IMG/VR virus record: IMGVR_UViG_3300045391_000045
Location: 1 to 64,000 of that record
Length of the DNA: 64,000 nt
Direction: 5' to 3' (one strand)
Origin: a virus
Part shown: positions 4,277 to 43,937 of the stretch, one piece after another
Layout of the letters: every line of letters begins with the position of its first letter
Position numbering within the stretch: the stretch's first letter is position 1
The notes under the pieces: generated by a model
Database searches by the model: none
Seen by the model: the letters and a program-made list of their open reading frames with translations, nothing else
What the model was told of the DNA's origin: nothing
Made by a program: the position numbers and the translations under genes

Positions 4277-4981
4277 ATGCGGGGTAAATCGAAGAACGAT
4301 TTATCGAAAACTAGAAGATTTTGGAATCGTAAAGAAAAGATGATTGACAGATACAAGTATACAATCTTTAGCGTAGATGATTCTAGAGCGCACTATATTG
4401 AAAAGATGCGCCCTGTGCTTTCAAGTTTTATGGATGAAGTAGAAACATATTGTGTTGATGGCAGAATTCCAGAAGAGCTAAAGAAAGCACAAGAAAAGCA
4501 TCCATATGAAGTGAAATATGATGCGAAGGTTGGACAGCTAGGAATCTGGTACACTGTGCTCAATGCGCTGGAGAATGCGCCAATCCTGACTCTAGAAGAT
4601 GATGCGCTGCTGCATGAAAACTTCCCAGATAGGTTCGGATGGAATATCAGAGAGTGGCAGCACGATACCGACTTCTTCTCTTTGTTCCTTCCACGAGATA
4701 GTGACCATCTTTATGACGAAAATAGAGATAGGATAGGCCACTACACTTGTCGAACGTATCAGAGATACGGCGGGGTATCTATGTATTACACAAAGCAGGG
4801 TGCTGAAAAGATTAAGGCTTTGCTTGAAAGAGATGGAATTACAGGACAGTACGATGATACATTGTACGCATACTCTAAGGCTGGTGAGCTTAACGGTTAT
4901 TGCTCAATCCCATCACTACCTGACCTAGTTTATATCACAGGTCTAGAAGACAGTATCGTTCAGGAGACGGAATACGCATGA
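4277..4981 (+). CDS. putative glycosyltransferase (GT25-like), start uncertain (possibly 4338)
   Basis: ORF track; weak resemblance to LPS glycosyltransferase family; adjacent to GT2-like gene. Confidence 0.4.
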   Translation: MRGKSKNDLSKTRRFWNRKEKMIDRYKYTIFSVDDSRAHYIEKMRPVLSSFMDEVETYCVDGRIPEELKKAQEKHPYEVKYDAKVGQLGIWYTVLNALENAPILTLEDDALLHENFPDRFGWNIREWQHDTDFFSLFLPRDSDHLYDENRDRIGHYTCRTYQRYGGVSMYYTKQGAEKIKALLERDGITGQYDDTLYAYSKAGELNGYCSIPSLPDLVYITGLEDSIVQETEYA

Positions 4982-7315: not shown

Positions 7316-7868
7316 TATCGATGGCGTAATGTACGATTTCGCTGAATCGCTTCGCCAATACATGAGGTACTTTGGTTATGACAAGAAGTATAAGATGTGT
7401 GAGGGTGAAGTCAGCGAATGGTACTTTTACCGTCATTGGGGCATGACAGACAGTGAGTTCGTAAACCACTGTCACAAGGGTGTGGACGCAGGGTTCGTCT
7501 TTGCCCACGGAGGCACCCGTGACAATTCTTCTGACGCTGTGAGATTTGTGAAGGACCTAGGTCACTCGGTTCATATCATCACGGACAGAAGTTTTGGTAG
7601 CACCCCTGAACGGTCCCACTTTGCCACTAGGCAGTGGCTCTATCTGAACGACATTCCGTATGATACGATTGACTTCTCTGCTGACAAGACGTGTCGAGAG
7701 ACTGACATGTTCATTGAGGACAAGTTGGAGAACTATGATGCACTTGTAGCGGCGGGTGTAGACTGCTACCTTGTAAACAGGCCATGGAACATGGTTCCTG
7801 GAGATGACAGGAAGCGTATCAAGAGTATCCAAGAGTATGCTACAATTATTGGAAATCTTAGTGTTTGA
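7299..7868 (+). CDS. HAD-family 5'(3')-deoxyribonucleotidase
   Basis: N-terminal GFDIDGV (DxDxV HAD motif I). Confidence 0.6.
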   Translation: MRVGFDIDGVMYDFAESLRQYMRYFGYDKKYKMCEGEVSEWYFYRHWGMTDSEFVNHCHKGVDAGFVFAHGGTRDNSSDAVRFVKDLGHSVHIITDRSFGSTPERSHFATRQWLYLNDIPYDTIDFSADKTCRETDMFIEDKLENYDALVAAGVDCYLVNRPWNMVPGDDRKRIKSIQEYATIIGNLSV

Positions 7869-7911
7869 CTTTTTGGTTGACTAAGATTACAATTGTTTTA
7901 GAAAGGATAAA

Positions 7912-8088
7912 ATGCCAATTTATACATACTGGTGTCAGTGTTGCGATAACGACCAGGAGAAGATGGCGAAGATTGATGAAAGAGACAATCAGCGCTGTGA
8001 CACATGTGGCAACCGACTTGTTCGAGCCATTGATAAGCCTGGTGCAGTTTGGGCACCAACGAGCACTAGTGGAGGTTTGAGGGTATAA
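7912..8088 (+). CDS. FmdB-family zinc-ribbon protein
   Basis: 58 aa MPIYTYWCQCCDN...CDTCGNRL, classic FmdB CxxC...CxxC; RBS AAAGGATAAA. Confidence 0.5.
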   Translation: MPIYTYWCQCCDNDQEKMAKIDERDNQRCDTCGNRLVRAIDKPGAVWAPTSTSGGLRV

Positions 8089-13002: not shown

Positions 13003-13361
13003 TGTCTGAGTGGGATTGGCCACTGGAGTCATTTAAGGATGAGCCTGACAAGATTGAGAAGCACTATGCTGAACGTTCGAAGTCAGGCTTTTCCACATTT
13101 GACTGGTGGAATTTTGATACATACATTGCTGGAGTTATCGGCCGGGCTGTGAGAGAATTTGCATACGGTCATGGTTACCACAGTGACTTCACCAATATGG
13201 AAGATTTTGCGGCTTTTTGCAAGACAATCTACGAACCCCTTGAGTTTTACGCAAGCAAGGAGTACGGTAGACTTAAGTTCGATGAACAGGCAGTCAAGTA
13301 TGAAGAGGCTGTTGAGGCAATGAAGAAGTTTTCCGAGCGTCTTGGCGCTTGGTGGGACTGA
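13002..13361 (+). CDS. hypothetical protein
   Basis: 119 aa ORF. Confidence 0.45.
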   Translation: MSEWDWPLESFKDEPDKIEKHYAERSKSGFSTFDWWNFDTYIAGVIGRAVREFAYGHGYHSDFTNMEDFAAFCKTIYEPLEFYASKEYGRLKFDEQAVKYEEAVEAMKKFSERLGAWWD

Positions 13362-13363
13362 CT

Positions 13364-13393
13364 TGACAACCCCAGTCGTCAAGTGGTAAGGTA
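13364..13393 (+). promoter_or_regulatory. sigma70-like promoter TTGACA-N18-TAAGGT upstream of tRNA cluster
   Basis: TTGACA at 13364, TAAGGT at 13388. Confidence 0.45.
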
Positions 13394-13464
13394 GTAACAC
13401 GTCCACAGGAACCGACGAATTTGTTCCTCGCAGTTACATCTCTGCGATAGCAAAAGATGGCAAT

Positions 13465-13536
13465 GCTCATTGGTGTAATCGGCAGCACACGGGTCTCTGG
13501 AACCTTTAGTCCGAGTTCGAATCTTGGGTGAGCAGC
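13465..13536 (+). tRNA. tRNA-Gln (anticodon CTG)
   Basis: U1-A72 acceptor TGCTCAT/GTGAGCA (typical of bacterial tRNA-Gln), loop CTCTGGA, T-arm CCGAG-TTCGAAT-CTTGG. Confidence 0.55.
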
Positions 13537-13549
13537 TTTGCAAAACATA

Positions 13550-13620
13550 TCTCAGAGCGTAGGTTGTGTCGGTCGGTCTCCAAAACCGACTCGTGAGAGT
13601 TCGAATCTCTCCTGGGGTGC
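13550..13620 (+). tRNA. tRNA-Trp (anticodon CCA), degenerate D-arm
   Basis: anticodon arm TCGGT-CTCCAAA-ACCGA matches tRNA-Trp, T-arm GAGAG-TTCGAAT-CTCTC, acceptor ATCTCAG/CTGGGGT. Confidence 0.5.
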
Positions 13621-13749
13621 TTGACTTCCAAGTCTTGGAGGTGCTAAGATGGTATATAGATTGAAGGCGCTGTTCTTCAAGTTCCGCCCGGTGGTTGACA
13701 AGCTACTGAGCAGATGGTACGTTAGAAGAACAAAGTAAGCAACAAGCTT

Positions 13750-13868
13750 TCGGGTCGGCTGGATGAGGGTTATCTAACCTAAACAATTATACAGTCAATG
13801 GTAATTCCTGGTGGATTCCAGGGAGTGTGGTGACTATAACACCTCTCCCTCGCCAATAACATATCCGA
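13750..13868 (+). ncRNA. Y RNA-like / YrlA-related repeat unit a (GGGTCGG...TTATCTAAC...ACATATCCG), precedes tRNA-Ile
   Basis: shares 5' GGGTCGG, internal GGTTATCTAAC and 3' ACATATCCG motifs with six other units; multiple hairpins; Ro60 gene nearby. Confidence 0.45.
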
Positions 13869-13874
13869 AAACAA

Positions 13875-13949
13875 TGGGGTATAGCTCGGTCTGGTTAGAG
13901 CATTCCGCTGATAACGGAACGGTCGTCGGTTCAAATCCGACTGCCCCAA
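13875..13949 (+). tRNA. tRNA-Ile (anticodon GAT)
   Basis: D-stem GCTC/GAGC, anticodon arm TTCCG-CTGATAA-CGGAA, T-arm GTCGG-TTCAAAT-CCGAC, acceptor TGGGGTA/TGCCCCA. Confidence 0.6.
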
Positions 13950-13953
13950 CTTT

Positions 13954-14089
13954 ATGGGTCGGATTCAGTAGTTTAACTTAAATCCAAACCGCGTGTCCTA
14001 GGTTCGAATCCTAGTCCCGGCTTTCTTGTCGGGGTAGCTCAGTGGCAGAGCAGTGGTCCTTAAAAAACACTATTGAAACAACATATCCA
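13954..14089 (+). ncRNA. Y RNA-like (YrlA-like) unit b with permuted tRNA-like module (T-arm + 3' acceptor, 5-nt loop, 5' acceptor + D-arm)
   Basis: 13988-14022 ACCGC-GTGTC-CTAGG-TTCGAAT-CCTAG-TCCCGGC followed at 14028 by GTCGGGG-TA-GCTC-AGTGGCA-GAGC-A-GTGGT; acceptor halves pair 7/7, GTGGT pairs ACCGC 5/5. Confidence 0.55.
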
Positions 14090-14107
14090 TTAAATAACTT
14101 AAAATTT

Positions 14108-14249
14108 GCGGGTCGGAAGAATTCAGTTATCTTTCTACCACAAACAATCAGAAAACCGCAGGTTCGACTCCTCGGAGGGATGAATGTGAGAGGTCACAGC
14201 TAGGCATGAAGCTTAGTGAATCCAGCTTCTGAATTCTATAATATATCCG
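14108..14249 (+). ncRNA. Y RNA-like repeat unit c (degenerate T-arm-like element GGTTCGACTCC)
   Basis: 5' GGGTCGG, 3' ATATATCCG, internal ACCGC-AGGTTCGACTCC. Confidence 0.35.
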
Positions 14250-14257
14250 CAAAAGCT

Positions 14258-14355
14258 TTGGGTCGGATGAAGACGTTTATCGTAAGTTCAACTCTTATCA
14301 TCCCCCCTCATGGGGATGGGGCGTGGTGCCCACTCGTTTTCTACAACATACCCAT
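14258..14355 (+). ncRNA. Y RNA-like repeat unit d, precedes tRNA-Ser
   Basis: 5' GGGTCGGATG, hairpins ATCCCC-CCTCAT-GGGGAT and GGGC-GTGGT-GCCC, 3' ACATACCC. Confidence 0.35.
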
Positions 14356-14358
14356 TAT

Positions 14359-14445
14359 GGAAGGTCAATCCGATTGGCGACGGAACTTGTCTTGAAAACA
14401 AGCGAGGTGTGAAAGCCCTTAGGAGTTCGACTCTCCTACCTTCCG
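14359..14445 (+). tRNA. tRNA-Ser (anticodon TGA)
   Basis: acceptor GGAAGGT/ACCTTCC perfect, anticodon arm CTTGT-CTTGAAA-ACAAG, long variable arm, T-arm AGGAG-TTCGACT-CTCCT. Confidence 0.6.
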
Positions 14446-14730
14446 CTTTACCCTAAGGAGTAAAATTGACTGAGACAGAGAATGTCGGTCCTACATCGTA
14501 TCAGCTAGCAATCATCCTTGCACTTCAGAGCAAGCATGTATACGCTAACACAGTTAGTTACGATGAGATTGCACGACGACGTAAGGCAAGCAAGCGAGCG
14601 CGGCTACAGCGCAGAACAAACAGAAGGCTTGACACGACACGTCGCTCGTGATAAGGTTTTATTAGATGGTCGGCAAGCAGGGAAGAGAAGGCTACAGGAG
14701 CTTGAGCAACAACACCTTCCACCATCACAT

Positions 14731-14803
14731 GCGTCGTTAGTTCAGCGGTCAGAGCACTGCCCTGTCAAGGCAGAAGTCGCGGGTTCGAATCCCGTACGGC
14801 GCG
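14731..14803 (+). tRNA. tRNA-Asp (anticodon GTC)
   Basis: acceptor GCGTCGT/ACGGCGC, anticodon arm CTGCC-CTGTCAA-GGCAG, T-arm GCGGG-TTCGAAT-CCCGT. Confidence 0.6.
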
Positions 14804-14833
14804 CTTTCGTAAAGGAATAAAGAGGGAGTTCTA

Positions 14834-15034
14834 ATGGCACGAGTTAAGAAGTTTGACCTTGTTGAGCTTGACAAGGAAGGCTGGTTCTCTGCTAAGGTAA
14901 GTGGAAAGTTCCGGGGTTTGGTCGAGAAGACTGGACGAAGCAACTACACTCTTCACCTTGGCAAGAACGATGTAACTAACTTCAAGACTAAGAAGGCTCT
15001 TGAGACTTGGCTCACCGAGAAGTGGGCATCATAA
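14834..15034 (+). CDS. hypothetical protein
   Basis: 66 aa ORF with RBS AAAGAGGGAG. Confidence 0.45.
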   Translation: MARVKKFDLVELDKEGWFSAKVSGKFRGLVEKTGRSNYTLHLGKNDVTNFKTKKALETWLTEKWAS

Positions 15035-15052
15035 TTAAATATTGATAAACGT

Positions 15053-15114
15053 TCGGGTCGGATGTAATTGCTTATCTATTATGGGAATAAAACGCGATTA
15101 CTCTAACATATCCG
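15053..15114 (+). ncRNA. Y RNA-like repeat unit e (short)
   Basis: GGGTCGGATG...TTATCTATT...ACATATCCG. Confidence 0.3.
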
Positions 15115-15139
15115 TTCTAAACTTCTAGCCCTAACAATT

Positions 15140-15263
15140 TCGGGTCGGAGTTTCTTGGTTACCTTACTATGCATGAGAAGTTGTCGGTTCGAATCCGGCC
15201 GGGTCCATTCATGGGCCTGTAGTTTAATTGGCAAAACTTACACCGAGGAACGTTTCATATCCG
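15140..15263 (+). ncRNA. Y RNA-like (YrlA-like) unit f with permuted tRNA-like module
   Basis: 15183-15207 GTCGG-TTCGAAT-CCGGC-CGGGTCC-A, loop TTCAT, then 15213 GGGCCTG-TA-GTTT-AATTGGCA-AAAC; acceptor halves pair 7/7 with wobbles; bounded by GGGTCGG and CATATCCG. Confidence 0.5.
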
Positions 15264-15306
15264 TCTTAATTGTTAGGGCTAAGCTTTTGTCTAGAAAAGG
15301 AGAGAC

Positions 15307-15493
15307 AATGCCTCGCTACGAGAAGAAGGTCAAGATTAACGCAAACCTCGTAAAGAAGTATGACGAGGAATACTACCGAGTCCTTGACGATGTGCAGATG
15401 CGTGAGCTAAAGTTCAAGGGACATGTCCGGCCGGAAGGTAAGGTTGTTGAAACCAGGACACACATCATCAGCTATTACATTGAGGTGGATTGA
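15307..15493 (+). CDS. hypothetical protein
   Basis: 62 aa, RBS AAAAGGAGAGACA. Confidence 0.45.
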
Positions 15494-15494
15494 T

Positions 15495-15860
15495 ATGCTT
15501 AACTGGCTTGGCCAGGACGTAAAGGTAGGCTCTGTGGTTTTTCGCGGGGCTCGGCAAGGTAACTCTTCCAGTCACAAGATTGGTGTGGTAGAGTCTCTTA
15601 ACGAGAAGACGCGAAAGGCACGGGTGGCCTGGAAGTACGAGCTTGGTGTAGAGTGGATTCGTCCAGTCCAAGGACAGTCTTACTACCTTGAGTGCCCACA
15701 CAAGTTGAGTGAACGTGCAAAGGGGAGTCCTGACGTTGGTCCGCTTGTAGTTGTGCCCCATGGTCTGCTAACCTCAGCAGAGAACATGATTAAGGGTGCA
15801 GAGATGGCTAAGGCACAGAATGTACCATCACATGAGGTTGACAACTTCATTCAGATTTGA
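15495..15860 (+). CDS. hypothetical protein
   Basis: 121 aa, ATG overlaps upstream stop (TGATATG). Confidence 0.45.
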   Translation: MLNWLGQDVKVGSVVFRGARQGNSSSHKIGVVESLNEKTRKARVAWKYELGVEWIRPVQGQSYYLECPHKLSERAKGSPDVGPLVVVPHGLLTSAENMIKGAEMAKAQNVPSHEVDNFIQI

Positions 15861-15933
15861 TAATTTCATAGCCGGTAATACCGGCAAGCTTCCATAAACA
15901 ATATGCCCAAAATGGGCCGAAAGGATTAGAAAA

Positions 15934-17550
15934 ATGTCTAATGCACTTGGTAAGTTTGCTGCTTCTCAGAAGCAGGAGCGCGTTGCTACGCCTCAGACAA
16001 AGCGTACCCCTGGTCGTACGGATGAGGTCAAGAACAACGCGGGCGGGTTTGTGTTCAAGGTAGACGACAAGTCTCGTCTTGAGCGCTTCCTGGTGTTGGG
16101 TACTGACAAGGGTACCTATTACGTTGGTGAGCAGAAGTTGACGGCTCAGAACATTTCCTTCCTGAAGGAGATGGTCCGTAAGGATGAGCGTCTGGTCGTG
16201 GACACTGCTGTTGACGTCTCTGTAAACGCTCGTGCGCTTAAGAATTCTCCTGCGCTGTTCGCTATGGCTCTGGTCATGACGGAGGGCAAGGACAAGGCTT
16301 ACGCTCGTGAGGCCGTACAGAAGGTTGCTCGTACGTCTACCCACCTTTTCGAGTACGCACAGTACATCGATGACCTGGGTGGTTGGGGTCGAGCAAAGCG
16401 TCGTTCTGTCGCTGAGTGGTACGAGAACAAGTCTATCGATGCGCTTGCGTATCAGGCTGTGAAGTACCGTCAGAGGAACGGTTGGACGCACCGTGACCTT
16501 TTCCGTCTTGCTCACCCTCAGGGTGTAGACCAGGGTGTTGGTAACTTCATCCTTGGCAAGGACGTTGAGGCTGAGGTGGAAATTCTTAAGGGCTTCGCTG
16601 CAATGCAGTCTGCGACTTCGGTCAAGGATGTTATTCGCACGCTGGAGACTTTCAAGAACCTTCCTTGGGAGACCATCCCTACTCAGTTCCTCAAGGATGT
16701 GAAGGTCTGGAAGACTCTGTTCTACAACGGTCAGCTTCGTGGCCAGGCTCTCATTCGCAACATTACTCGACTCGCTCGAATTGGTGCGTTTGATGACATG
16801 GTTTTCGCAACTGACTACGCGAACGCAATTGCTAACCAGGAAATGATTCAGAAGACTCGTCTTCACCCAATCAACTTCCTGAATGCGGTTGTTGTTCACG
16901 AGAGTGGACAGATTGACCGTAACGGTTACAGCATGTGGAGTGCCGGACGTAAGAAGGATTGGAAGTCTAACGGAAAGATTGTGGATGCTCTCAATGAGGG
17001 ATTCCACATGGCATTCAAGACTGTCGAGCCTTCTGGCAAGAGGACTCTGGTTGCGACTGACGTGTCTGGCTCAATGAGTCAGGCTGCCATCGGACTTGAC
17101 CTCTCTTGTGCTCAGGTTTCTGCGGCTGTTGCTATGACGGTTGCGCGTTCCGAGCCTTACAGTGACATTGTTGGCTTCTCTAGCAGCATTGTTGACTTGG
17201 GCATTACCGCTAAGAGTTCTTTTGCCGACGCAATGCGTAAGGTGAGTAACAGGAACTTTGGTGGTACGGATGCGGCTGCTGCAATTAAGTACGCTAACCA
17301 GAAGGGAATTCAGGTTGACACCTTCGTAGTTATCACTGATAACGAGACGTGGGGCGGAAGCCAGAAGCCTTTCCAGGCACTTAAGCAGTACCGTCAGAAG
17401 ACCGGAATTGATGCGCGTCTTGCGGTTCTCGGTGTGGCGTCTACGGACTTCACCATCGCTGACCCTACGGACCGTGGAATGATGGACTTCGTTGGTTTCG
17501 ATGCAAATGCGCCTAAGGCCCTCGCGGACTTCAGCGCTGGTCGTATCTGA
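15934..17550 (+). CDS. rsr: Ro60-like ribonucleoprotein (TROVE domain + C-terminal vWA/MIDAS)
   Basis: 538 aa; TROVE-like N-terminal region; MIDAS motif VATDVSGSM...TD; RBS AAAGGATTAGAAAAATG. Confidence 0.8.
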   Translation: MSNALGKFAASQKQERVATPQTKRTPGRTDEVKNNAGGFVFKVDDKSRLERFLVLGTDKGTYYVGEQKLTAQNISFLKEMVRKDERLVVDTAVDVSVNARALKNSPALFAMALVMTEGKDKAYAREAVQKVARTSTHLFEYAQYIDDLGGWGRAKRRSVAEWYENKSIDALAYQAVKYRQRNGWTHRDLFRLAHPQGVDQGVGNFILGKDVEAEVEILKGFAAMQSATSVKDVIRTLETFKNLPWETIPTQFLKDVKVWKTLFYNGQLRGQALIRNITRLARIGAFDDMVFATDYANAIANQEMIQKTRLHPINFLNAVVVHESGQIDRNGYSMWSAGRKKDWKSNGKIVDALNEGFHMAFKTVEPSGKRTLVATDVSGSMSQAAIGLDLSCAQVSAAVAMTVARSEPYSDIVGFSSSIVDLGITAKSSFADAMRKVSNRNFGGTDAAAAIKYANQKGIQVDTFVVITDNETWGGSQKPFQALKQYRQKTGIDARLAVLGVASTDFTIADPTDRGMMDFVGFDANAPKALADFSAGRI

Positions 17551-17602
17551 AACACTGCCCCCTCTTCGGAGGGGGCAAGCTTGTTAAAGGAGAACAGTTT
17601 GA

Positions 17603-18912: not shown

Positions 18913-18990
18913 GCCCCAGTATCGCCACTGGCTTCTAACCAGTCGTTAACAGCGTAATGGAGTATGCAGGTTCGAATCCTGTCTGGGGTA
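18913..18990 (+). tRNA. atypical tRNA-like gene (anticodon TCT, Arg) with 5-nt D region and 22-nt variable arm
   Basis: acceptor GCCCCAG/CTGGGGT, anticodon arm ACTGG-CTTCTAA-CCAGT, T-arm GCAGG-TTCGAAT-CCTGT; no D-arm can be folded. Confidence 0.4.
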
Positions 18991-20660: not shown

Positions 20661-20690
20661 TTGACACCCCAGTCCTGGGTCGGGTAATAT
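20661..20690 (+). promoter_or_regulatory. promoter TTGACA-N18-TAATAT
   Basis: precedes tRNA-Lys. Confidence 0.45.
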
Positions 20691-24386: not shown

Positions 24387-24665
24387 GGGGTAGCTTGGTT
24401 TCGACTTTGCTGGACGGGATATAAACGCAACCCTTCTTGGTCAAAGAAGTAAAACGGGCCAACCAAATAAATGCAAACTCTATGAATGCATCTGCTTTCG
24501 CTCTAGCAGCGTAAAAGCCGGGTTTGTCGGGAACCTAGGAACAGAATCCCGACTAGTACAAAATGTGTAGATAATGTGTAAGACCCTTCAGTGTGATTGA
24601 CAATGGTTGTAGAACGGTTATATGCTAGATAGTAAAGGACGCGGGTTCGACTCCCGCCTACTCCA
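24387..24665 (+). ncRNA. ssrA: tmRNA (ssrA), tag ANSMNASAFALAA
   Basis: 5' GGGGTAGCTTGGTTTCGAC...GGACGGGAT like tmRNA 5' end; in-frame tag GCA AAC TCT ATG AAT GCA TCT GCT TTC GCT CTA GCA GCG TAA (24473-24514); 3' T-arm GCGGG-TTCGACT-CCCGC + acceptor CTACTCC pairing GGGGTAG. Confidence 0.8.
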
Positions 24666-24676
24666 CACAGAAAGAT

Positions 24677-24856
24677 ATGGTAATGAGAGTAACAAATCTC
24701 TACATCTATGGTACTGTCGAGTACCTGCGTAGGCTTGAGGAAGACTACGTGTTCATGGGTAGACAAGTGAGACTTGAAGATGATAGGCTCATCGTGTTCG
24801 CGCTTCCCAGGAAGAAGCGAAAGAAGTCTCCCAGTAAGCAGCGCCGTAGGCGTTGA
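24677..24856 (+). CDS. hypothetical basic small protein
   Basis: 59 aa ORF with Lys/Arg-rich tail. Confidence 0.3.
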   Translation: MVMRVTNLYIYGTVEYLRRLEEDYVFMGRQVRLEDDRLIVFALPRKKRKKSPSKQRRRR

Positions 24857-28817: not shown

Positions 28818-29885
28818 ATGGTACACGTTTCGAAGATTTTCTCGCTCGATGCGTTGCAGAAGGATATCGATGCGGGATTGGTACGTTCACAGGTAAATGA
28901 GGATGGGACGCTCCGCATTTACAATTACACCGAAGAGGTTCAGTACAAGCGAATGTGGAATGACGTTACGCTGAATTGTCGTGGCCTTATTCTCGACAAT
29001 TACATGCACGTTGTTGCTCGTCCATGGAAGAAGTTCTTCAATTTCGGTGAGCGTCCTCTTCTATTCAGCACTGACACTCCGGTTGAGGTGACTGACAAGA
29101 AGGATGGTTCATTGGGTATTCTTTATCGTCACCCAATGACCGGGGATTACCGAATTGCAACTCGTGGCTCTTTCTTGTCTGACCAGGCTATTCACGCTAC
29201 AAAGGTCTGGGACAACAAGTACAGCCACATCGCACAGCCTTGGGATGGAGTTACATTCCTGTTTGAGATTGTGTACCCTGACAATCGCATTGTGCTGGAT
29301 TACGGTGAGCTTGATGACCTAATCTTGCTGGGTGCCGTTCACAATCAGTATGGATGGTACTACGGTCCGAACGAGGCTGCTGGGATGCTCAACTGGACTG
29401 GTCCTGTCACTGAGGTCTTTGAGTACCGGACCACGAACGACTGCTTCAAGGTGCACCGTTCAAATGCTGAGGGTCTGGTAATTCGGGCCGGTAGCGAGAT
29501 GGTCAAGTTGAAGCAGGAGGACTACGTGGCTTTGCACAAGCTAGTCACAGGTCTGAACGAGCGTGCTGTATGGGAGCGCTTGAAGGCAGGCGAGACACGT
29601 GATAGTATCTGTGCATCGCTTCCCGATGAGTTCCACGGATTTGTTGACAAGGTTGCGGATGAGCTAGAGACAAAGTTCAACGAGATTTACCACAGTTCCC
29701 ACGTGGATTACTGTAAGGTGTTGAACATAATGCCTGGCAAATCAAGCATGAGTAAGGCAGACTGGCGTAAGATGTTCGCATCGCACGCTGTTAAGATGCC
29801 TAACTACGACTTGATTTTCAACTACCTTGACAACCGTCCGGTACAGGAGTCTATTTGGAAAATGATTCGTCCTAAGGGCGAGTAA
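28818..29885 (+). CDS. ATP-dependent RNA ligase, Rnl1-like
   Basis: nucleotidyltransferase motif I VTDKKDGSLG (KxDG), 355 aa. Confidence 0.65.
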   Translation: MVHVSKIFSLDALQKDIDAGLVRSQVNEDGTLRIYNYTEEVQYKRMWNDVTLNCRGLILDNYMHVVARPWKKFFNFGERPLLFSTDTPVEVTDKKDGSLGILYRHPMTGDYRIATRGSFLSDQAIHATKVWDNKYSHIAQPWDGVTFLFEIVYPDNRIVLDYGELDDLILLGAVHNQYGWYYGPNEAAGMLNWTGPVTEVFEYRTTNDCFKVHRSNAEGLVIRAGSEMVKLKQEDYVALHKLVTGLNERAVWERLKAGETRDSICASLPDEFHGFVDKVADELETKFNEIYHSSHVDYCKVLNIMPGKSSMSKADWRKMFASHAVKMPNYDLIFNYLDNRPVQESIWKMIRPKGE

Positions 29886-29924: not shown

Positions 29925-30203
29925 ATGAAAAATCTGGATTATGAAAAAGTCATTGATGGATATAACGACCTTCGTGAAACATGCCTTGTAATTGCTAAGC
30001 TTAACGATGAGCTGATGGGTCCTGACAGATGGCTGAAGTTTGCCATCCAAGACTCGGATATCACGTTGATGTTTACAGAGCGAGGCATCGTGTGCTATGG
30101 TAGTGCTTACACGACACAGACGATGGACAACGAACACTTCAGTTTCATGATTCCGTTTGAATATCTAGAGGAGTTTGAGGCAAATGCTAGAACTGGTGAT
30201 TAA
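29925..30203 (+). CDS. hypothetical protein
   Basis: hairpin-CAAGCTT-GGAGGAGAAATG upstream. Confidence 0.5.
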   Translation: MKNLDYEKVIDGYNDLRETCLVIAKLNDELMGPDRWLKFAIQDSDITLMFTERGIVCYGSAYTTQTMDNEHFSFMIPFEYLEEFEANARTGD

Positions 30204-30603
30204 CCGGGGGATTCCTGGTAGTGGAAAGTCAACATATGCTCGTGAGTGGGTATTGAAGCCAGGAACCAGACGTGCTAGGGTTAATCGTGATGACATTCGA
30301 ATGCAGCTCTATGGAGTTGAATTCGGTGTCCCGATTGAGGAGACTGTAGTAACGGCGGTTGAAGACCAGATGATTAACACCTTGCTTTCTGAGGGTGTCT
30401 CAGTCATCATTGATGACTGTAACATCAGTCAGCGATACATCAACAGGTTTACAAAGATGGGCGAGAAGCATGGCGCAGAGGTGAGAGTTAATCTCATCAA
30501 CGTTGACCTTGCGACTGCTCTGGACCGGAATAGCAAGCGTGACCGTTTCGTTCCAACCCATGTAATTCAGGATATGTATAAGAGACTTCAGGAGTCGCTG
30601 TAA
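30175..30603 (+). CDS. polynucleotide 5'-kinase (P-loop, T4 Pnk kinase-domain-like)
   Basis: Walker A GIPGSGKST, RxxxR; adjacent to RNA ligase. Confidence 0.6.
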   Translation: MRQMLELVINRGIPGSGKSTYAREWVLKPGTRRARVNRDDIRMQLYGVEFGVPIEETVVTAVEDQMINTLLSEGVSVIIDDCNISQRYINRFTKMGEKHGAEVRVNLINVDLATALDRNSKRDRFVPTHVIQDMYKRLQESL

Positions 30604-34265: not shown

Positions 34266-34330
34266 TCAGGGCGGGGTTCATAAAGAGCCCCGCAAGCTTC
34301 ATTGGTTCGAAAACAAAGGAGATATAACCA

Positions 34331-36256
34331 ATGCGACCTAATGCAAATGTGGCTGAACGCAAGGGTGACCTTGGTGGCCAGAAGATTGCAATGACGTTCG
34401 ACCAGAATAGTCTTGCACATCTTATGTCGGTTATGACTGACCTGTATTCTGACCCTGAGCTTGCGGTAATTCGTGAGTACAGCACAAATGCGTGGGATTC
34501 CCACAAGGCTGCTGGGGTTACTCGTCCTATTGAGGTTACGCTCCCTAATGGTCTTTCTCCTTACTTCAAGGTCAAGGATTACGGCCTTGGTATGGATATT
34601 GACGACATTGAGAATATCTATTCTCAGTATGGTGCGTCAACGAAGCGTGACACTGATGACCAGGTTGGTATGCTTGGTCTTGGTTGTAAGTCTGCGCTGT
34701 CTTATACTTCCCAATTCACGCTTATTGCTGTGAAGGATGGAATGAAGTATAATGTAGCTATTAGCCGTACAGAGAATGGCTCCGGAGTCATGGAGGTTGT
34801 TCTTGCAACCGAGACTGACGAAGAGAATGGCGTTGAAATTGTCATTCCGGCTAAGCGTGGTAACAACTTTGCACACAAGGCAAATGAATTCTACCAGTTC
34901 TGGGAGAAGGGCAGTGTGCTTATTGATGGTGAAGAGCCTAAGTACATTTCTGGCCGGGAGGTCAAGAATGGAATTATGATGGTCTCTGACCTTTCCAAGG
35001 ATTATCTTATCATGGGTAACGTCGGTTATCCTCTTGATGAGCGTCACCAGATTGGTGAGCGCAATTACTATTCCCGCTATGGCGTAGTGGCGCGGGTTGA
35101 CATTGGAGACGTGAACTTTACGCCTTCTCGTGAATCCCTGCATTACACTAAGCGTACTGAGGACACAATCAATCGAATTCGGACTGAATTCAAGGCGGGT
35201 CTCGATGGTATTGTTGAGCGAGACGTTACGGCATGTGCAACTCAGGAAGAGGCTCTTACGACTTACCTTGAGTGGTACAATCTTCTTGGTGGTGGTTACA
35301 GCCGTTACAAGTTCCCTGAGGTTGAGTACCGGGGTAAGAAGGTTCCGATGAACATTCAGCACCCGTTCCTCTCCTACAAGGTGAACCACACGCGGTATGC
35401 AGTTGATTCACACAACTGGATTGATATTAAGACTGCTCGTGATACCCCCATCATTTATGGGTTCGCTGGTGAAAAGATTAGCGGCCATCAGCGTGAGAAG
35501 ATGCGTACTTGGCGCACGCTCAATGGATTCACTTCTAGCAACATCCTGATTTGTGATGAACTGCCGGATGTTCTTGAAGAGGATTGGATTCCTGAGAGCA
35601 AGGTATATTCTTGGGAGGATGTTAAGACTGCTAAGGTTCCGGGACAGAAGTCTGGTCGTCCTGCTGCTGTTTACGATGTTTACCTTCCTGGTTCTACTCG
35701 TATCAAGCAGGTAAAGGCTGACGAATTCCCTGACGACGTTGAGATTGCCCTTGTGGCTCCGCGAGATGTTCCTAATTTCCGGACCGTTAAGGCTTTCCTT
35801 GAGGAGAAGACGGATGTTATGATTGTTCGACTTCAGCAGTACCGATGGGAAAAGTTCCGCAGGACATATCCTGACGCTAAGGACCTTACGTCATTCTTCA
35901 AGGAGATGTACGAGAGCGCAGTAAAGGGCCTTACCGATGAGGACAAGTTCAACCTTGGCCTTGACTATCGTGTCCGCAATCTGCTACAGTCTCTTAATGA
36001 GACGGAGATTGAAGACCCGGAACTTGTAAAGGCTATCATTGCTGCAAAGCAGGTCAAGCCTAGTGATACTCTCAAGCGATATGAGGAAATGAAGGAAACC
36101 TATGGTACCTTTAACTTCGCTCGATATGGTCAGGCTGAAATTGACCGGGTTAACCCGCTTGAGCAGTACGTTCTTCTGAAGTACCATTACTACGACATGG
36201 ATGTTACGCACGCTACGGTTTATATCAATGCAGCGTACCACGCTTTCGTAAAGTGA
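34331..36256 (+). CDS. GHKL-family ATPase, Hsp90/HtpG-like
   Basis: N-box VIREYSTNAWDS, G1 box VKDYGLGMD, G2 box GMLGLGCKSALSY; 641 aa. Confidence 0.6.
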   Translation: MRPNANVAERKGDLGGQKIAMTFDQNSLAHLMSVMTDLYSDPELAVIREYSTNAWDSHKAAGVTRPIEVTLPNGLSPYFKVKDYGLGMDIDDIENIYSQYGASTKRDTDDQVGMLGLGCKSALSYTSQFTLIAVKDGMKYNVAISRTENGSGVMEVVLATETDEENGVEIVIPAKRGNNFAHKANEFYQFWEKGSVLIDGEEPKYISGREVKNGIMMVSDLSKDYLIMGNVGYPLDERHQIGERNYYSRYGVVARVDIGDVNFTPSRESLHYTKRTEDTINRIRTEFKAGLDGIVERDVTACATQEEALTTYLEWYNLLGGGYSRYKFPEVEYRGKKVPMNIQHPFLSYKVNHTRYAVDSHNWIDIKTARDTPIIYGFAGEKISGHQREKMRTWRTLNGFTSSNILICDELPDVLEEDWIPESKVYSWEDVKTAKVPGQKSGRPAAVYDVYLPGSTRIKQVKADEFPDDVEIALVAPRDVPNFRTVKAFLEEKTDVMIVRLQQYRWEKFRRTYPDAKDLTSFFKEMYESAVKGLTDEDKFNLGLDYRVRNLLQSLNETEIEDPELVKAIIAAKQVKPSDTLKRYEEMKETYGTFNFARYGQAEIDRVNPLEQYVLLKYHYYDMDVTHATVYINAAYHAFVK

Positions 36257-42764: not shown

Positions 42765-42955
42765 TGGCTAAGAAGAAGCCGAAGCCAATTGGCTCAGGCA
42801 ATTACACTGTTTGTAGAAAGTGCAGAGGCACTGGTCAGACATTCGATATCAAGAAGGCAAACAATCCAAAGGGTCAAGCGATTCTGTGGATTCCCTGCCC
42901 TGATTGTAAGGATGGTACCGGCCAGTCTAGAGGTTGGGTTGACGCAGAGCGTTGA
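42764..42955 (+). CDS. zinc-ribbon protein
   Basis: CRKCRGTG...CPDC. Confidence 0.45.
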   Translation: MAKKKPKPIGSGNYTVCRKCRGTGQTFDIKKANNPKGQAILWIPCPDCKDGTGQSRGWVDAER

Positions 42956-42988
42956 CATGTGTTAAGATAGATACATCGGGTCGGACGG

Positions 42989-43017
42989 TTGACAAATAAT
43001 CCGACCTAACATACACT
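42989..43017 (+). promoter_or_regulatory. promoter TTGACA-N17-TACACT
   Basis: within GGGTCGGACGG...TCCGAC hairpin region. Confidence 0.4.
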
Positions 43018-43023
43018 TAGAGT

Positions 43024-43473
43024 ATGAAAACGTGCTCTAAGTGTAAGCTTGAAAAGCCTCTTGAGGATTTTCCAAAGAAGGGTTTCGTAAAGGGTAAGCA
43101 AGTTTATCGTTCGGACTGTAAAGATTGTAAGTCCGAATTGGATAAGAAGGTTTATGCCAATACAGACCTAGAAAGACGAAGAATTCTACAGGCCGAAGCC
43201 ACTAAGCGAAGGCTTGCTAATAACAGGAAATTGGTGTATGACTACCTGAAGAACCATCCATGTGTAGATTGTGGACAGGACAACATCATTGTGCTAGAGT
43301 TTGACCACGTAAGAGGTGAGAAGACGCAAAGCATTTCAACAATGGTTGCTAGACATAGACCAGAGTCAGAAATCCTAGAGGAAATTGAGAAGTGCGATGT
43401 TCGATGTGCAAATTGCCATCGTATCGTAACGGCTCAACGTGGTGGTTGGAATGTACTTGACCACCTAGACTGA
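43024..43473 (+). CDS. HNH endonuclease
   Basis: N-terminal Cys cluster, EFDHV...N...CANCH. Confidence 0.6.
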   Translation: MKTCSKCKLEKPLEDFPKKGFVKGKQVYRSDCKDCKSELDKKVYANTDLERRRILQAEATKRRLANNRKLVYDYLKNHPCVDCGQDNIIVLEFDHVRGEKTQSISTMVARHRPESEILEEIEKCDVRCANCHRIVTAQRGGWNVLDHLD

Positions 43474-43493
43474 ATGTGTTAAACTTGAATATA

Positions 43494-43595
43494 TCGGGTC
43501 GATTGGATAGGGTTATCTAACAATCAATTGGTGATGAGCCTTCGGGCAACCCTGCGGCGGGTATAGCCGCATCTCCCTTCCTCAACATATCCGAT
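43494..43595 (+). ncRNA. Y RNA-like repeat unit g (GGGTCG...GGGTTATCTAACAATCAATTGG...ACATATCCG), precedes tRNA-Gly
   Basis: same terminal motifs as units a-f; internal UUAUCU-AA-UCAAUUG resembles the loop of vertebrate Y RNAs. Confidence 0.4.
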
Positions 43596-43602
43596 GTATT
43601 TG

Positions 43603-43674
43603 CGGGTGTAACTCAATTGGCAGAGTGCTAGCCTTCCAAGCTAGATGTTGCCGGTTCGACCCCGGTCACCCGCT
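43603..43674 (+). tRNA. tRNA-Gly (anticodon TCC)
   Basis: acceptor GCGGGTG/CACCCGC perfect, anticodon arm CTAGC-CTTCCAA-GCTAG perfect, T-arm GCCGG-TTCGACC-CCGGT. Confidence 0.6.
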
Positions 43675-43682
43675 CGAAACAA

Positions 43683-43716
43683 ATGCCCCGCTGGTAAATA
43701 ACTGGCGGGGATTTGT
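43683..43716 (+). terminator. hairpin CCCCG-N14-CGGGGATTTG (copy of 20797 element) after tRNA-Gly
   Basis: GCCCCGCTGGTAAATAACTGGCGGGGATTTGTTGTTTC. Confidence 0.45.
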
Positions 43717-43739
43717 TGTTTCTATGGTAAGATGGAGTC

Positions 43740-43937
43740 ATGGAAGAAATCGTATCCTACAGTTTTGCTGTAGACATTTACAAGAATGAGTCTGGAACGT
43801 ACACTTATGGTGTGTTCCAAGAGATTGAATCTGATGAAGAGGACGAACTACAGTTGCTTGAGTCTGGTGAGACTGATACACTAGCTGAAGCGGCAGAGGT
43901 TGCGGGCCGAAGCATCAAGACACTGTTCACTGTTTGA
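43740..43937 (+). CDS. hypothetical acidic protein
   Basis: 65 aa. Confidence 0.4.
   Translation: MEEIVSYSFAVDIYKNESGTYTYGVFQEIESDEEDELQLLESGETDTLAEAAEVAGRSIKTLFTV

What the first reader, a model, noticed from the sequence alone, without database searches (positions are those of the whole stretch)
13750..17550. Phage-encoded Ro60 (TROVE+vWA) orthologue with an array of Y RNA-like units embedded in the tRNA cluster
A 538 aa protein (15934-17550) carries a TROVE-like body and a C-terminal MIDAS motif (DVSGSM...TD), i.e. a Ro60/Rsr orthologue. Ro60 proteins bind Y RNAs, and in bacteria and phages the cognate YrlA RNAs are encoded near rsr and contain a tRNA-like module. Immediately upstream, and again at 43494, there are at least seven repeated 60-140 nt units (a-g), each beginning with TTYGGGTCGG(A) and ending with (A)ACATATCCG. 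Several share an internal GGTTATCTAAC(A)ATCAATTGG element that resembles the UUAUCUCAAUUGAUUG loop of vertebrate Y RNAs. Three units (a, d, g) sit directly upstream of bona fide tRNA genes (Ile, Ser, Gly). This looks like a Ro60/Y RNA ribonucleoprotein toolkit integrated with the tRNA island, and it is unlikely to be annotated in any automated pipeline.
Basis: partly seen in the sequence, partly recalled or inferred. Interest (0 to 1): 0.85.

Follow-up and report, generated by a model that had tools for sequence, protein, structure and literature searches.

The report
Phage Ro60 with seven Y RNAs
A Streptomyces phage carries a Ro60 RNA-binding protein gene plus seven unannotated small RNA genes of the Y RNA type packed among its tRNA genes; this expands a partnership already known from bacteria and other phages and is not a new kind of system.

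Summary
The window comes from a cluster BE-type Streptomyces phage, about 90% identical to Gilson and Francob. ORF 15934-17550 is a full-length Ro60/Rsr orthologue with TROVE and vWA domains and an intact MIDAS motif, and GenBank relatives already annotate it as "Ro-like RNA binding protein". There are exactly seven repeat units, all on the + strand. Each has a covarying terminal helix (NNNGGGU/AUCCNNN), an internal loop (CGRA opposite AAYAU), a covarying 8-bp upper stem, a UUAUC element and a variable inner module. Units b and f carry a permuted tRNA-like module (T arm, 7-8 bp acceptor-like stem, D arm), which is the YrlA design. A covariance model built only from 16 units of distant Ro60-encoding phages recovers these seven units as its top seven window hits (E from 1e-20 to 6e-5). 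It also hits the known YrlA locus of mycobacteriophage Alice. An RNA-only pattern search of IMG/VR lands on Ro60-encoding contigs in 48 of 62 cases. The units abut tRNAs, and unit g sits in a promoter-unit-tRNA-terminator cassette. The Ro60/Y RNA reading is supported. Phage Ro60-Y RNA pairs are published (2014, 2025), so this is a new member of a known kind. Expression and binding remain untested.

The parts
15934..17550 (+). Ro60/Rsr orthologue, 538 aa, with a TROVE ring and a vWA domain carrying a MIDAS motif
   Evidence: Pfam vWA_Ro60 5.4e-56 and TROVE 3.2e-37. PDB 2NVO 6.6e-100 and 1YVP 3.8e-85. Translation shows the MIDAS residues. Annotated 'Ro-like RNA binding protein' in Gilson and other relatives.
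13749..13869 (+). Unit a: Y RNA-like, with no tRNA-like module; ends 5 nt before tRNA-Ile
   Evidence: R2 32.2 bits, E 8.7e-6. MFE fold shows the terminal helix UUCGGGU/AUCCGAA plus an upper stem. Own-arm duplex -13.1 kcal/mol.
13875..13950 (+). tRNA-Ile(GAU), flanked by units a and b
   Evidence: ARAGORN; Rfam tRNA 65.4 bits.
13953..14091 (+). Unit b: YrlA-type Y RNA with a permuted tRNA-like module (anticodon-stem analogue, T arm, 7-bp acceptor-like stem, D arm); starts 2 nt after tRNA-Ile
   Evidence: R2 94.3 bits, E 1e-20. Rfam YrlA 29.0 bits against GA 69. RNAalifold consensus with compensatory changes.
14107..14251 (+). Unit c: Y RNA-like, with a degenerate T arm and a three-way module in place of the acceptor and D arms
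   Evidence: R2 35.6 bits, E 1.3e-6. Fold. Orthologues in L004, L040 and L041 keep the helices.
14257..14356 (+). Unit d: Y RNA-like, with two inner hairpins; ends 2 nt before tRNA-Ser
   Evidence: R2 28.7 bits, E 6.2e-5. Fold. This is the weakest of the seven: its 3' motif is ACAUACCCA.
14359..14446 (+). tRNA-Ser(UGA), closing the 698-nt stretch a-tRNA-b-c-d-tRNA
   Evidence: ARAGORN.
15052..15116 (+). Unit e: minimal 65-nt Y RNA-like core, comparable to YrlB
   Evidence: R1 60.4 bits; R2 33.4 bits, E 4.4e-6. A promoter-like site lies at 15007-15035.
15139..15265 (+). Unit f: YrlA-type Y RNA with T arm, 8-bp acceptor-like stem and D arm, 669 nt upstream of Ro60
   Evidence: R2 73.4 bits, E 1e-15. 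Rfam YrlA 28.5 bits over the tRNA-like part. Included in A3.
43457..43485 (+). Promoter-like site TTGACC-17-TAAACT with an upstream TG, ending 7 nt before unit g
   Evidence: A promoter-like string is also present in Gilson and SparkleGoddess in the alignment.
43493..43595 (+). Unit g: Y RNA-like, 25.9 kb downstream of Ro60; ends 6 nt before tRNA-Gly(UCC)
   Evidence: R2 32.0 bits, E 9.7e-6. Orthologous position occupied in BE relatives, with a compensated upper stem in Gilson.
43602..43675 (+). tRNA-Gly(UCC), probably co-transcribed with unit g
   Evidence: ARAGORN; Rfam 66.8 bits.
43686..43710 (+). Terminator-like hairpin (10 bp, 7 G-C) followed by a T-rich tail, closing the g-tRNA-Gly cassette
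42975..43020 (+). Truncated unit-like start (GGGTCGGACGG...AACATACAC) behind a promoter-like site. It is not a complete unit because no terminal helix is possible.
   Evidence: Sequence; promoter-like site 42939-42968. R1 and R2 give only about 13 bits.

Best explanation
The locus encodes a phage Ro60 ribonucleoprotein system: one Ro60/Rsr protein and seven paralogous Y RNA-type small RNAs.

Shown computationally:
- Every unit closes its 5' and 3' ends into a covarying 5-7 bp helix.
- This helix is followed by a conserved asymmetric internal loop: 5' C-G-R-A plus one nt, opposite 3' A-A-Y-A-U with a 5-7 nt spacer.
- Then come a covarying 8-bp stem and a UUAUC element that opens a variable inner module.
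- Units b and f hold a complete tRNA-like module wired through the anticodon-stem position, which is the YrlA design. Unit c keeps only a T arm. Units a, d and g carry other hairpins. Unit e is a bare core.

Inferred:
- Ro60 binds the conserved GGGUCGRA/AAYAUAUCC bulged helix of each RNA. The matching GNCGAA/GGUCCGA element is its binding site in bacteria and vertebrates.
- The differing inner modules act as adaptors or gates. They could tether the Ro60 ring to different partners, such as host PNPase or tRNA-recognising enzymes, to remodel or degrade structured RNAs during infection.
- Biogenesis is coupled to the tRNA island. The units are co-transcribed with tRNAs from phage promoters. RNase P cutting at the 5' end of the downstream tRNA sets the 3' ends of a, d and g, and 3' processing of tRNA-Ile sets the 5' end of b.
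- With their 7-8 bp acceptor-like stems, b and f may themselves be cut by RNase P and receive CCA, as happens for M. smegmatis YrlA.
For: Protein identity.

Seven units and no more.

Structure:
- Terminal helix: 92.6% paired, covariation 0.394 against 0.188 in shuffles, 0/500 shuffles as high, and the three outer pairs change on both sides.
- Upper stem: own-partner duplex -10.1 kcal/mol against -3.3 for cross-partners among the seven window units, permutation 1/10000.
- YrlA-type units: RNAalifold consensus of terminal helix, upper stem, T arm, 7-bp acceptor-like stem and D arm, with 22 of 30 pairs showing compensatory changes.
- 34 units aligned to R2: 93.1% paired, 26 of 27 pairs with double changes, covariation score 0.499 against 0.158, and slid controls at most 0.121.

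Homology without circularity: model R2 was built from 16 units of other phages whose Ro60 is 31-64% identical to the window protein. Its top seven window hits are b 94.3, f 73.4, c 35.6, e 33.4, a 32.2, g 32.0 and d 28.7 bits, with the next hit at E 0.03. In mycobacteriophage Alice it scores 83 bits at the place where Rfam YrlA gives its partial hit, plus two flanking short units.

Link to Ro60:
- A strict motif-plus-helix scan finds 66 units on the Ro60 strand and 0 on the other strand in 887 kb.
- All 57 R2 hits in 35 Ro60 loci lie on the Ro60 strand, many within 1 kb upstream of the gene.
- An RNA-only pattern search of 2.9 million IMG/VR contigs hits 62 contigs, 48 of which show Ro60 in the DNA held; 27 of those were not found through the protein.
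- Relatives carry the canonical GUCGAAUG, matching the GNCGAAN0-1G motif of Chen 2014.

tRNA coupling: 36 of 66 units lie within 2 nt after, or 7 nt before, a tRNA. Unit g sits in a promoter-unit-tRNA-terminator cassette.

Context: a T4 Rnl1-type RNA ligase and a P-loop kinase lie in the same island.

Precedent: phage Ro60 binds phage Y RNA-like RNAs and host PNPase in Thermus phage phiLo (PMC12135203). M. smegmatis YrlA is cut by RNase P and receives CCA (PMC4201824).
Against: - There are no expression, end-mapping or binding data for any BE phage, so all functional steps are inferred.
- Rfam YrlA scores for b and f (29.0 and 28.5 bits) are far below the gathering score of 69. No related locus reaches it, although the known Alice YrlA also fails at 37.4 bits.
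- The window motif GUCGGA departs by one base from GNCGAA.
- Five of the seven units lack the tRNA-like domain that defines YrlA.
- Unit g lies 26 kb from Ro60, outside the 4-kb criterion used by Chen 2014.
- Phage Annadreamy has lost Ro60 but keeps its a-, b-, c- and e-type units. The units therefore persist without the protein for a time, and neither is needed for plaque formation.
- The A6 alignment used was fitted to the model's structure and so leans towards it.
Confidence: 0.8

Rival explanations
1. The units are cis-acting structural elements of polycistronic tRNA transcripts, such as processing, stability or punctuation signals for RNase P, Z, E or III. They work independently of Ro60, and their nearness to Ro60 is an accident of the tRNA island.
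For: More than half of all detected units abut a tRNA within a few nucleotides. Unit g is 26 kb from Ro60 and shares a cassette with tRNA-Gly. Annadreamy keeps four units after losing Ro60.
Against: The RNA signature alone predicts Ro60 in 48 of 62 IMG/VR contigs. The same core occurs directly upstream of Ro60 with no tRNA next to it in mycobacteriophage Alice and in bacterial MAG contigs. Units e and f have no abutting tRNA. The conserved single-stranded motif matches the published Ro60-binding motif. The Annadreamy breakpoint lies inside unit f, which points to a recent deletion rather than long-term independence.
Confidence: 0.08
2. The units are decaying tRNA-derived repeats or small mobile repeat elements that spread through the tRNA island by recombination and have no function of their own.
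For: Copy number varies from 4 to 7 among close relatives: Comrade-type phages lack b and c, and a g-type sequence sits at the a position in L019 and Faust. Several units hold T-arm fragments. A truncated copy lies at 42975.
Against: Every helix shows compensatory change across phages whose Ro60 proteins are only 31-64% identical. Spacing is constant between GGGUCG and UUAUC and between the upper stem and AUAUCC. Strand bias is absolute, 66 to 0. None of this fits neutral decay. No inverted terminal repeats or target duplications were seen.
Confidence: 0.04
3. The RNAs are real Y RNA mimics, but their main target is the host. They would sponge or redirect a host Ro60/Rsr or host PNPase rather than serve the phage Ro60.
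For: Seven RNAs for one protein suggests an excess of RNA. phiLo Yrl RNAs bind host PNPase on their own in EMSA (PMC12135203). The units persist in the Ro60-less phage Annadreamy.
Against: The RNA signature and a phage-borne Ro60 co-occur tightly across very divergent phages. No test was made for a host Rsr in the Streptomyces hosts.
Confidence: 0.06

Closest known systems
YrlA/YrlB Y RNAs of bacteria and mycobacteriophages (Chen et al. 2014, PMC4201824; Rfam RF02553)
   Same: They are encoded on the same strand as a Ro60 orthologue and mostly within about 2 kb upstream of it. The 5' and 3' ends pair. They carry a 5' G-N-C-G-A/G-A motif and a YUAY-type element (UUAU/UUAC) that opens the inner region. 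Units b and f have T arm, acceptor-like stem and D arm in the same permuted order. The shorter units lack a full tRNA-like domain, like YrlB. The same model (R2) scores 83 bits on mycobacteriophage Alice at its Rfam YrlA hit.
   Different: There are seven copies rather than one to three. They are interleaved with genuine tRNAs at gaps of 2-6 nt, and one copy lies 26 kb away. The window motif is GUCGGA rather than GNCGAA. Rfam YrlA reaches only 29 bits (GA 69), because the terminal helix is in a different register (GGGU/AUCC outside the CGRA).
Thermus phage phiLo Ro60 with Yrl1/Yrl2 (PMC12135203, 2025)
   Same: A phage-encoded Ro60 has Y RNA-like genes upstream. The RNAs have a 5'-3' stem flanking an internal loop that carries a CGAA-type motif. 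That system has experimental support for binding and for a complex with host PNPase.
   Different: The host and phage lineage are different. phiLo has two RNAs and no reported interleaving with tRNAs. The phiLo Ro60 did not appear among the PDB sequence hits at E<=0.001, so the proteins are distant.
M. smegmatis rsr locus (YrlA plus YrlB processed from one precursor)
   Same: Several Y RNAs lie upstream of rsr and are co-transcribed and processed. A 7-bp acceptor-like stem makes YrlA an RNase P substrate with CCA addition. Units b and f have 7- and 8-bp stems at the same position.
   Different: Cleavage and CCA addition are untested here, and the phage array is mixed with real tRNAs.
Vertebrate Y RNAs (hY1-hY5; Rfam RF00019)
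   Same: The general plan is shared: paired termini with a conserved bulged Ro60-binding helix (GGUCCGA in vertebrates, GGUCGGA here) and a variable loop.
   Different: There is no detectable match to the Rfam Y_RNA model at E<=10. Vertebrate Y RNAs have no tRNA-like domain.
D. radiodurans Rsr-Yrn1-PNPase (RYPER)
   Same: The closest solved protein relative is Rsr 2NVO, at 6.6e-100. It provides the model for a Y RNA acting as a tether between the Ro60 ring and an exonuclease.
   Different: No PNPase gene was seen in the annotated island, so any partner would have to come from the host. Yrn1 has a different arm order.

Membership tests
Ro60/Rsr protein family | TROVE (HEAT-repeat ring) domain followed by a vWA domain | tested here: met
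   Pfam TROVE 3.2e-37 and vWA_Ro60 5.4e-56 covering profile positions 1-164 of 165. Full-length match to 2NVO, 9NEN and 1YVP.
Ro60/Rsr protein family | MIDAS motif (DxSxS ... T ... D) in the vWA domain | tested here: met
   DVSGSM at 375-380, GGTD and ITDNE read in the translation. Metal binding itself is not testable here.
Y RNA / YrlA family | Encoded near a Ro60 orthologue on the same strand (within 4 kb in Chen 2014) | tested here: met
   Units a-f lie 0.67-2.2 kb upstream of Ro60 on the + strand. Unit g fails the distance criterion at 25.9 kb downstream. Across loci, all 57 R2 hits are on the Ro60 strand.
Y RNA / YrlA family | 5' and 3' ends pair into a stem that carries the conserved Ro60-binding motif (GNCGAAN0-1G in bacteria, GGUCCGA in vertebrates) | tested here: inconclusive
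   The stem is present and covaries. The window motif is GUCGGA(U/A/G)G in six units and GUCGAUUG in g, one base off the published pattern. Related phages have an exact GUCGAAUG or GUCGAAAG.
Y RNA / YrlA family | tRNA-like domain: T arm, acceptor-like stem-loop and D arm in permuted order (this defines YrlA as opposed to YrlB) | tested here: met
   Met for b and f. Unit c has only a T arm. Units a, d, e and g have none and would be classed as YrlB-like.
Y RNA / YrlA family | Score at or above the Rfam RF02553 gathering threshold (69 bits) | tested here: not met
   Unit b scores 29.0 and f 28.5 bits. No hit at GA in seven related loci. The criterion is weak for phages, since the published-class mycobacteriophage Alice YrlA reaches only 37.4 bits.
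Y RNA / YrlA family | Homology to accepted members shown by a structure-aware model that does not contain the candidates | tested here: met
   R2, built from 16 non-window units, gives the seven units as its top seven hits at E 1e-20 to 6e-5. It scores 83 bits on the Alice YrlA locus.
Y RNA / YrlA family | Stable small RNA bound by Ro60 in vivo | not testable with these tools
   No transcriptome or RIP data were available. A literature search found no such data for BE phages.
Vertebrate Y RNA (Rfam RF00019) | Match to the Y_RNA covariance model | tested here: not met
   No Y_RNA hit at E<=10 in 13300-15950 or 42900-43750.

The most novel reading that the evidence does not exclude
The seven Y RNA paralogs may be a deliberately diversified adaptor set wired into tRNA biogenesis. 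Each inner module (tRNA mimic, T-arm-only, GGGUAUA-loop hairpin, bare core) would direct the single phage Ro60 ring to a different partner or substrate. The Y-unit/tRNA fusions (a-Ile, d-Ser, g-Gly, Ile-b) would place Ro60 on nascent phage pre-tRNAs. Ro60 would then act in surveillance or protection of the phage tRNA pool, together with the island's RNA ligase and kinase, against host tRNA-targeting defences.
Probability: 0.15. Interest if true: 0.7.

Novelty: new member of a known kind. Interest (0 to 1): 0.45.

Why it matters
Y RNAs are thought to work as modular adaptors for the Ro60 ring, but in bacteria the role of the tRNA-like module is still unknown. This phage offers seven natural variants: one shared Ro60-binding core joined to different modules, next to a single Ro60 gene, in phages that are easy to grow. 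A natural Ro60 deletion, Annadreamy, is already in culture collections. That makes module-by-module tests practical: which units bind Ro60, which partners each recruits, and whether tRNA processing defines their ends. On the practical side, about 115 Streptomyces and 212 Mycobacterium phage records with Ro60 homologues probably carry unannotated Y RNA genes that Rfam's gathering threshold misses. The core signature given here (NNNGGGUCGRA-N8-UUAUC ... AAYAUAUCCNNN) or model R2 would find them.

Tried and rejected
1. Rfam at gathering thresholds on the window and on seven related loci found only tRNAs and tmRNA. Rfam is therefore not usable as the membership test. The known Alice YrlA also fails it.
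2. A 54-position covariance model of the trimmed core (R1) found only the 65-nt unit e, at 60.4 bits. Units with long inner modules exceed the model's maximal hit length. R1 was replaced by the full-length model R2.
3. RNAalifold on the distant-phage alignment A5 mispredicted the upper stem because MAFFT misaligned the 3' strands. The pairs were re-derived column by column. The D arm was left out of R2 because half the rows were out of register.
4. GGGTCGG at 20677, 32048 and 42566, and the three minus-strand sites, are not units: they sit in a promoter spacer, a tRNA or coding sequence. The R2 hit at 24601-24710 is the tmRNA T arm. The hit at 34301-34332 is a short unrelated hairpin.
5. Coding potential of the a-d array was checked and rejected. 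It holds only ORFs of 59 aa or fewer with non-ATG starts that run through tRNAs.
6. I tried to read two Wolin-lab reviews (PMC10870794, PMC6047535) for statements on phage Y RNAs. They are not held.
7. No structure prediction was run. The sequence match to solved Ro60 structures is already decisive.

Full report
**Where the window comes from.** Megablast of 13300-17600 finds 44 phage records, 42 of them Streptomyces phages of about 128-131 kb. The best are Gilson (91.7% identity over 94% of the query) and Francob (89.5% over 97%). These belong to the Stanwilliamsviridae (actinobacteriophage cluster BE). The window holds 31 tRNA genes and a tmRNA, all on the + strand between 11.7 and 44 kb.

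**The protein.** ORF 15934-17550 encodes 538 aa.
- Pfam gives vWA_Ro60 at 5.4e-56 (essentially the whole profile) and TROVE at 3.2e-37.
- The PDB sequence search gives D. radiodurans Rsr 2NVO at 6.6e-100, human Ro60 at 1.1e-87 and Xenopus Ro60 1YVP at 3.8e-85, each over nearly the full length.
- The MIDAS residues DVSGSM, GGTD and ITDNE are present.
- The gene is not overlooked. Relatives annotate it as "Ro-like RNA binding protein". tblastn finds homologues in 358 GenBank phage records: 212 Mycobacterium, 115 Streptomyces, and some Gordonia and Microbacterium.

**The units.** There are seven, all on the + strand: a 13749-13869, b 13953-14091, c 14107-14251, d 14257-14356, e 15052-15116, f 15139-15265 and g 43493-43595.
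- GGGTCGG is over-represented: 13 against 5.0 expected, with 0 of 100 shuffles reaching that count.
- A profile of the 5' half returns these seven as its top seven hits, and the next hit has E>3.
- The long "GGTTATCTAACAATCAATTGG" string is really a feature of g alone. The shared element is UUAUC(U), 11 nt after GGGUCG (12 nt in a).
- The a-d array contains no credible ORF.

**Anatomy of a unit.** The MFE folds of all seven agree. Each unit has these elements, from the outside in:
- a terminal helix, NNNGGGU paired with AUCCNNN;
- an asymmetric internal loop, with 5' CGRA plus 1-2 nt opposite a 5-7 nt 3' spacer ending in AAYAU;
- an 8-bp upper stem whose sequence differs in every unit;
- the UUAUC element;
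- an inner module of very variable size.

*Terminal helix.* On 27 units from the window and related phages, the terminal helix is 92.6% paired. Its three outer pairs change on both sides in 3, 12 and 14 sequences. Covariation is 0.394 against 0.188 in shuffles, with 0 of 500 shuffles as high, and slid controls reach at most 0.108.

*Upper stem.* I paired each unit's 5' arm with its own 3' arm and with the 3' arms of the other units. Among the seven window units the own-arm energy is -10.1 kcal/mol and the cross-arm energy is -3.3 kcal/mol. Only 1 of 10,000 permutations reaches the observed mean.

*Inner modules.* Units b and f contain a T arm (GGUUCGAAUCC loop), a 7- or 8-bp acceptor-like hairpin and a D arm (AGCUCAGUGGCAGAGC type), in that order. 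Unit b also has a 5-bp anticodon-stem analogue, so it forms a cloverleaf joined to the Y stem where the anticodon loop would be. RNAalifold on 13 such units from seven phages predicts exactly these helices, and 22 of 30 pairs show compensatory changes. This is the YrlA design described by Chen et al. 2014 (PMC4201824). Unit c keeps only a bulged T arm plus a three-way module. Units a, d and g carry other hairpins. Unit e is a 65-nt bare core.

**Is it the known family?** Rfam is a poor judge here.
- YrlA (RF02553) gives 29.0 bits for b and 28.5 for f, against a gathering score of 69. In both cases only the tRNA-like part is aligned correctly.
- No related locus reaches the gathering score.
- The YrlA of mycobacteriophage Alice, a member of the phage group in which Chen et al. 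reported YrlA, also reaches only 37.4 bits.

I therefore built model R2 from 16 units taken only from other, distant phages, whose Ro60 is 31-64% identical to the window protein. The structure was restricted to helices verified column by column. Scanned over the whole window with filters off, R2's top seven hits are the seven units, with exactly the boundaries I had drawn:

| unit | bits | E-value |
|---|---|---|
| b | 94.3 | 1e-20 |
| f | 73.4 | 1e-15 |
| c | 35.6 | 1.3e-6 |
| e | 33.4 | 4.4e-6 |
| a | 32.2 | 8.7e-6 |
| g | 32.0 | 9.7e-6 |
| d | 28.7 | 6.2e-5 |

The next hit has E 0.03 and is a tRNA T arm. In Alice the same model scores 83 bits over the Rfam YrlA site, and 36 and 34 bits on two short flanking units. 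By eye these carry homologous motifs: AGGCCGAR ... GGUUAYC ... CACCAUGUCU. On 34 hits aligned to R2, 93.1% of cells pair and 26 of 27 pairs show double changes. The covariation score is 0.499 against 0.158, with 0 of 500 shuffles as high and slid controls at most 0.121. That alignment is fitted to the model and leans towards it.

Relatives of the window phage with Ro60 at 47-63% identity carry GUCGAAUG or GUCGAAAG, an exact match to the published GNCGAAN0-1G motif. The window has GUCGGA, one base off. Rfam's vertebrate Y_RNA model gives nothing at E<=10. The proposed likeness to the hY loop is therefore unsupported, and UUAUC fits the YUAY element of YrlA instead.

**Link to Ro60.**
- A strict scan (motifs plus both helices) over 887 kb of Ro60-centred loci finds 66 units on the Ro60 strand and none on the other strand.
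- R2 over 35 Ro60 loci gives 57 hits at E<=1e-4, all on the Ro60 strand and many within 1 kb upstream of the gene.
- The reverse test used an RNA-only pattern, GGGTCG-N11-13-TTANC-N8-38-GGTTCGAATCC, against 2.9 million IMG/VR contigs. It hit 62 contigs, of which 48 show a Ro60 homologue in the few kb of DNA held. Of those 48, 27 had not been found through the protein.
- Bacterial MAG contigs with Ro60 relatives (Poribacteria, Chthonomonas, and a likely phage contig binned as a cyanobacterium) have 2-6 tandem R2 hits directly upstream of Ro60. Multi-copy arrays are therefore not peculiar to this phage.
- One relative, Annadreamy, has lost Ro60 through a deletion that starts inside unit f and ends at tRNA-Arg. 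It keeps its a-, b-, c- and e-type units. This looks recent, and it shows that Ro60 is dispensable for plaque formation.

**Coupling to tRNAs.** Positions 13749-14446 are fully occupied by six RNA genes separated by only a few nucleotides:
- unit a, then a 5-nt gap;
- tRNA-Ile, then a 2-nt gap;
- unit b, then a 15-nt gap;
- unit c, then a 5-nt gap;
- unit d, then a 2-nt gap;
- tRNA-Ser.

Across all loci, 36 of 66 units start within 2 nt after a tRNA or end within 7 nt before one. Unit g lies in a compact cassette:
- a promoter-like site, TTGACC-17-TAAACT with an upstream TG, at 43457-43485;
- the unit, starting at 43493;
- tRNA-Gly at 43602-43675;
- a 10-bp terminator-like hairpin with a T-rich tail at 43686-43710.

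The g position is occupied in all BE1-type relatives. In Gilson the upper stem is rewritten with compensation (GAAGACGG/CCGUCUUC in place of GGAUAGGG/CCCUUCC). Copy number varies from 4 to 7 among close relatives, and a g-type sequence sits at the a position in L019 and Faust. The same island holds a T4 Rnl1-type RNA ligase (28818-29885) and a P-loop kinase annotated as polynucleotide kinase in Gilson (30175-30603).

**Most likely mechanism.** What is shown: seven structured RNAs with a common, conserved, partly single-stranded core and diverse inner modules, genetically linked to Ro60 and physically interleaved with tRNAs.

What is inferred from the established behaviour of Ro60 systems (Xenopus, D. 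radiodurans, S. Typhimurium, M. smegmatis, Thermus phage phiLo; PMC4201824, PMC12135203):
- Ro60 binds the GGGUCGRA/AAYAUAUCC bulged helix.
- The modules tether or gate the ring. Host PNPase and tRNA-recognising enzymes are the obvious candidate partners.
- The RNAs are released from tRNA-containing precursors by RNase P and the tRNA 3'-end machinery.
- Units b and f may be cut and given CCA, like M. smegmatis YrlA.

I put 0.8 on "Y RNA-family RNAs serving the phage Ro60". I put much less on any specific downstream role. Rivals are cis-acting tRNA-processing elements (0.08), host-directed decoys (0.06) and decaying repeats (0.04).

**Novelty.** Phage Ro60 with YrlA was reported for 22 phages in 2014. 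A phage Ro60-Yrl-PNPase complex was characterised in 2025. Genome announcements for BE phages mention the Ro-like protein but no Y RNAs, and no paper in the searchable library describes Y RNAs in Streptomyces phages. GenBank records leave the units unannotated. This is therefore a new member of a known kind. Its noteworthy features are seven paralogs with different modules and tight interleaving with tRNAs. I rate interest as moderate, at 0.45.

Noticed in passing
window 18913-18990 (+): An atypical tRNA-like gene lies directly after tRNA-Arg(GCG). Rfam tRNA gives 34.2 bits, but ARAGORN does not call it. The acceptor stem, T arm and an anticodon loop CUUCUAA (UCU, Arg) are visible, but there is no normal D arm and there is a long extra arm.
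   Followed up: partly
window 42975-43020 (+): A truncated unit-like start (GGGTCGGACGG...AACATACAC) follows a promoter-like site at 42939-42968, upstream of the ORF starting at 43025. The promoter-proximal string matches the one in front of the g-position unit of Gilson, which suggests duplication of a promoter plus unit 5' end.
   Followed up: partly
window 28818-29885 and 30175-30603 (+): A T4 Rnl1-type RNA ligase (PF09511, 1.8e-13) and a P-loop kinase (AAA_33, 1.3e-19; 'polynucleotide kinase' in Gilson) lie inside the tRNA island. Together they look like a tRNA-repair pair, alongside Ro60, the tmRNA and 31 tRNAs.
   Followed up: partly
L040 (Streptomyces phage Annadreamy NC_048719.1) about 7770-7950: This is a natural deletion that starts inside unit f and removes two small ORFs, Ro60, two further ORFs and tRNA-Arg(ACG). 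The a-, b-, c- and e-type units are retained. It amounts to a ready-made Ro60 knockout.
   Followed up: partly
L042 (Mycobacterium phage Alice NC_028986.1) 4600-4943: Three tandem Y RNA-like units lie directly upstream of Ro60, overlapping the annotated small ORFs gp218 and gp219. The middle unit is the YrlA type. The outer two are short and may not have been reported.
   Followed up: partly
L111-L117 (bacterial MAG contigs: Poribacteria, Chthonomonas, Fimbriimonadia, and a 'cyanobacterium' bin): Model R2 finds tandem arrays of 2-6 Y RNA-like units immediately upstream of the Ro60 homologues. L111 (Ro60 61% identical, six hits) may be a phage contig binned into a MAG.
   Followed up: no
L019 13199-13272 (IMG/VR 3300015242_000042): A related phage contig carries a tRNA with a CUA anticodon, which ARAGORN labels tRNA-Pyl. 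This is a possible amber suppressor.
   Followed up: no
window 24387-24668 (+): A phage-encoded tmRNA (Rfam 84.4 bits) with tag peptide ANSMNASAFALAA. Gilson annotates the orthologue as tmRNA.
   Followed up: no
window 13549-13620 (+): tRNA-Trp(CCA) scores only 29.1 bits in Rfam, right at the threshold, with a poorly matching D region. It may be a divergent or decaying tRNA.
   Followed up: no
L005 (Comrade-type) and L043/L045 (Gilson) compared with the window: Unit content is polymorphic among phages about 90% identical to one another. Comrade-type genomes lack b and c. Gilson has a different variant at the g position. A g-type sequence occupies the a position in L019 and Faust.
   Followed up: partly
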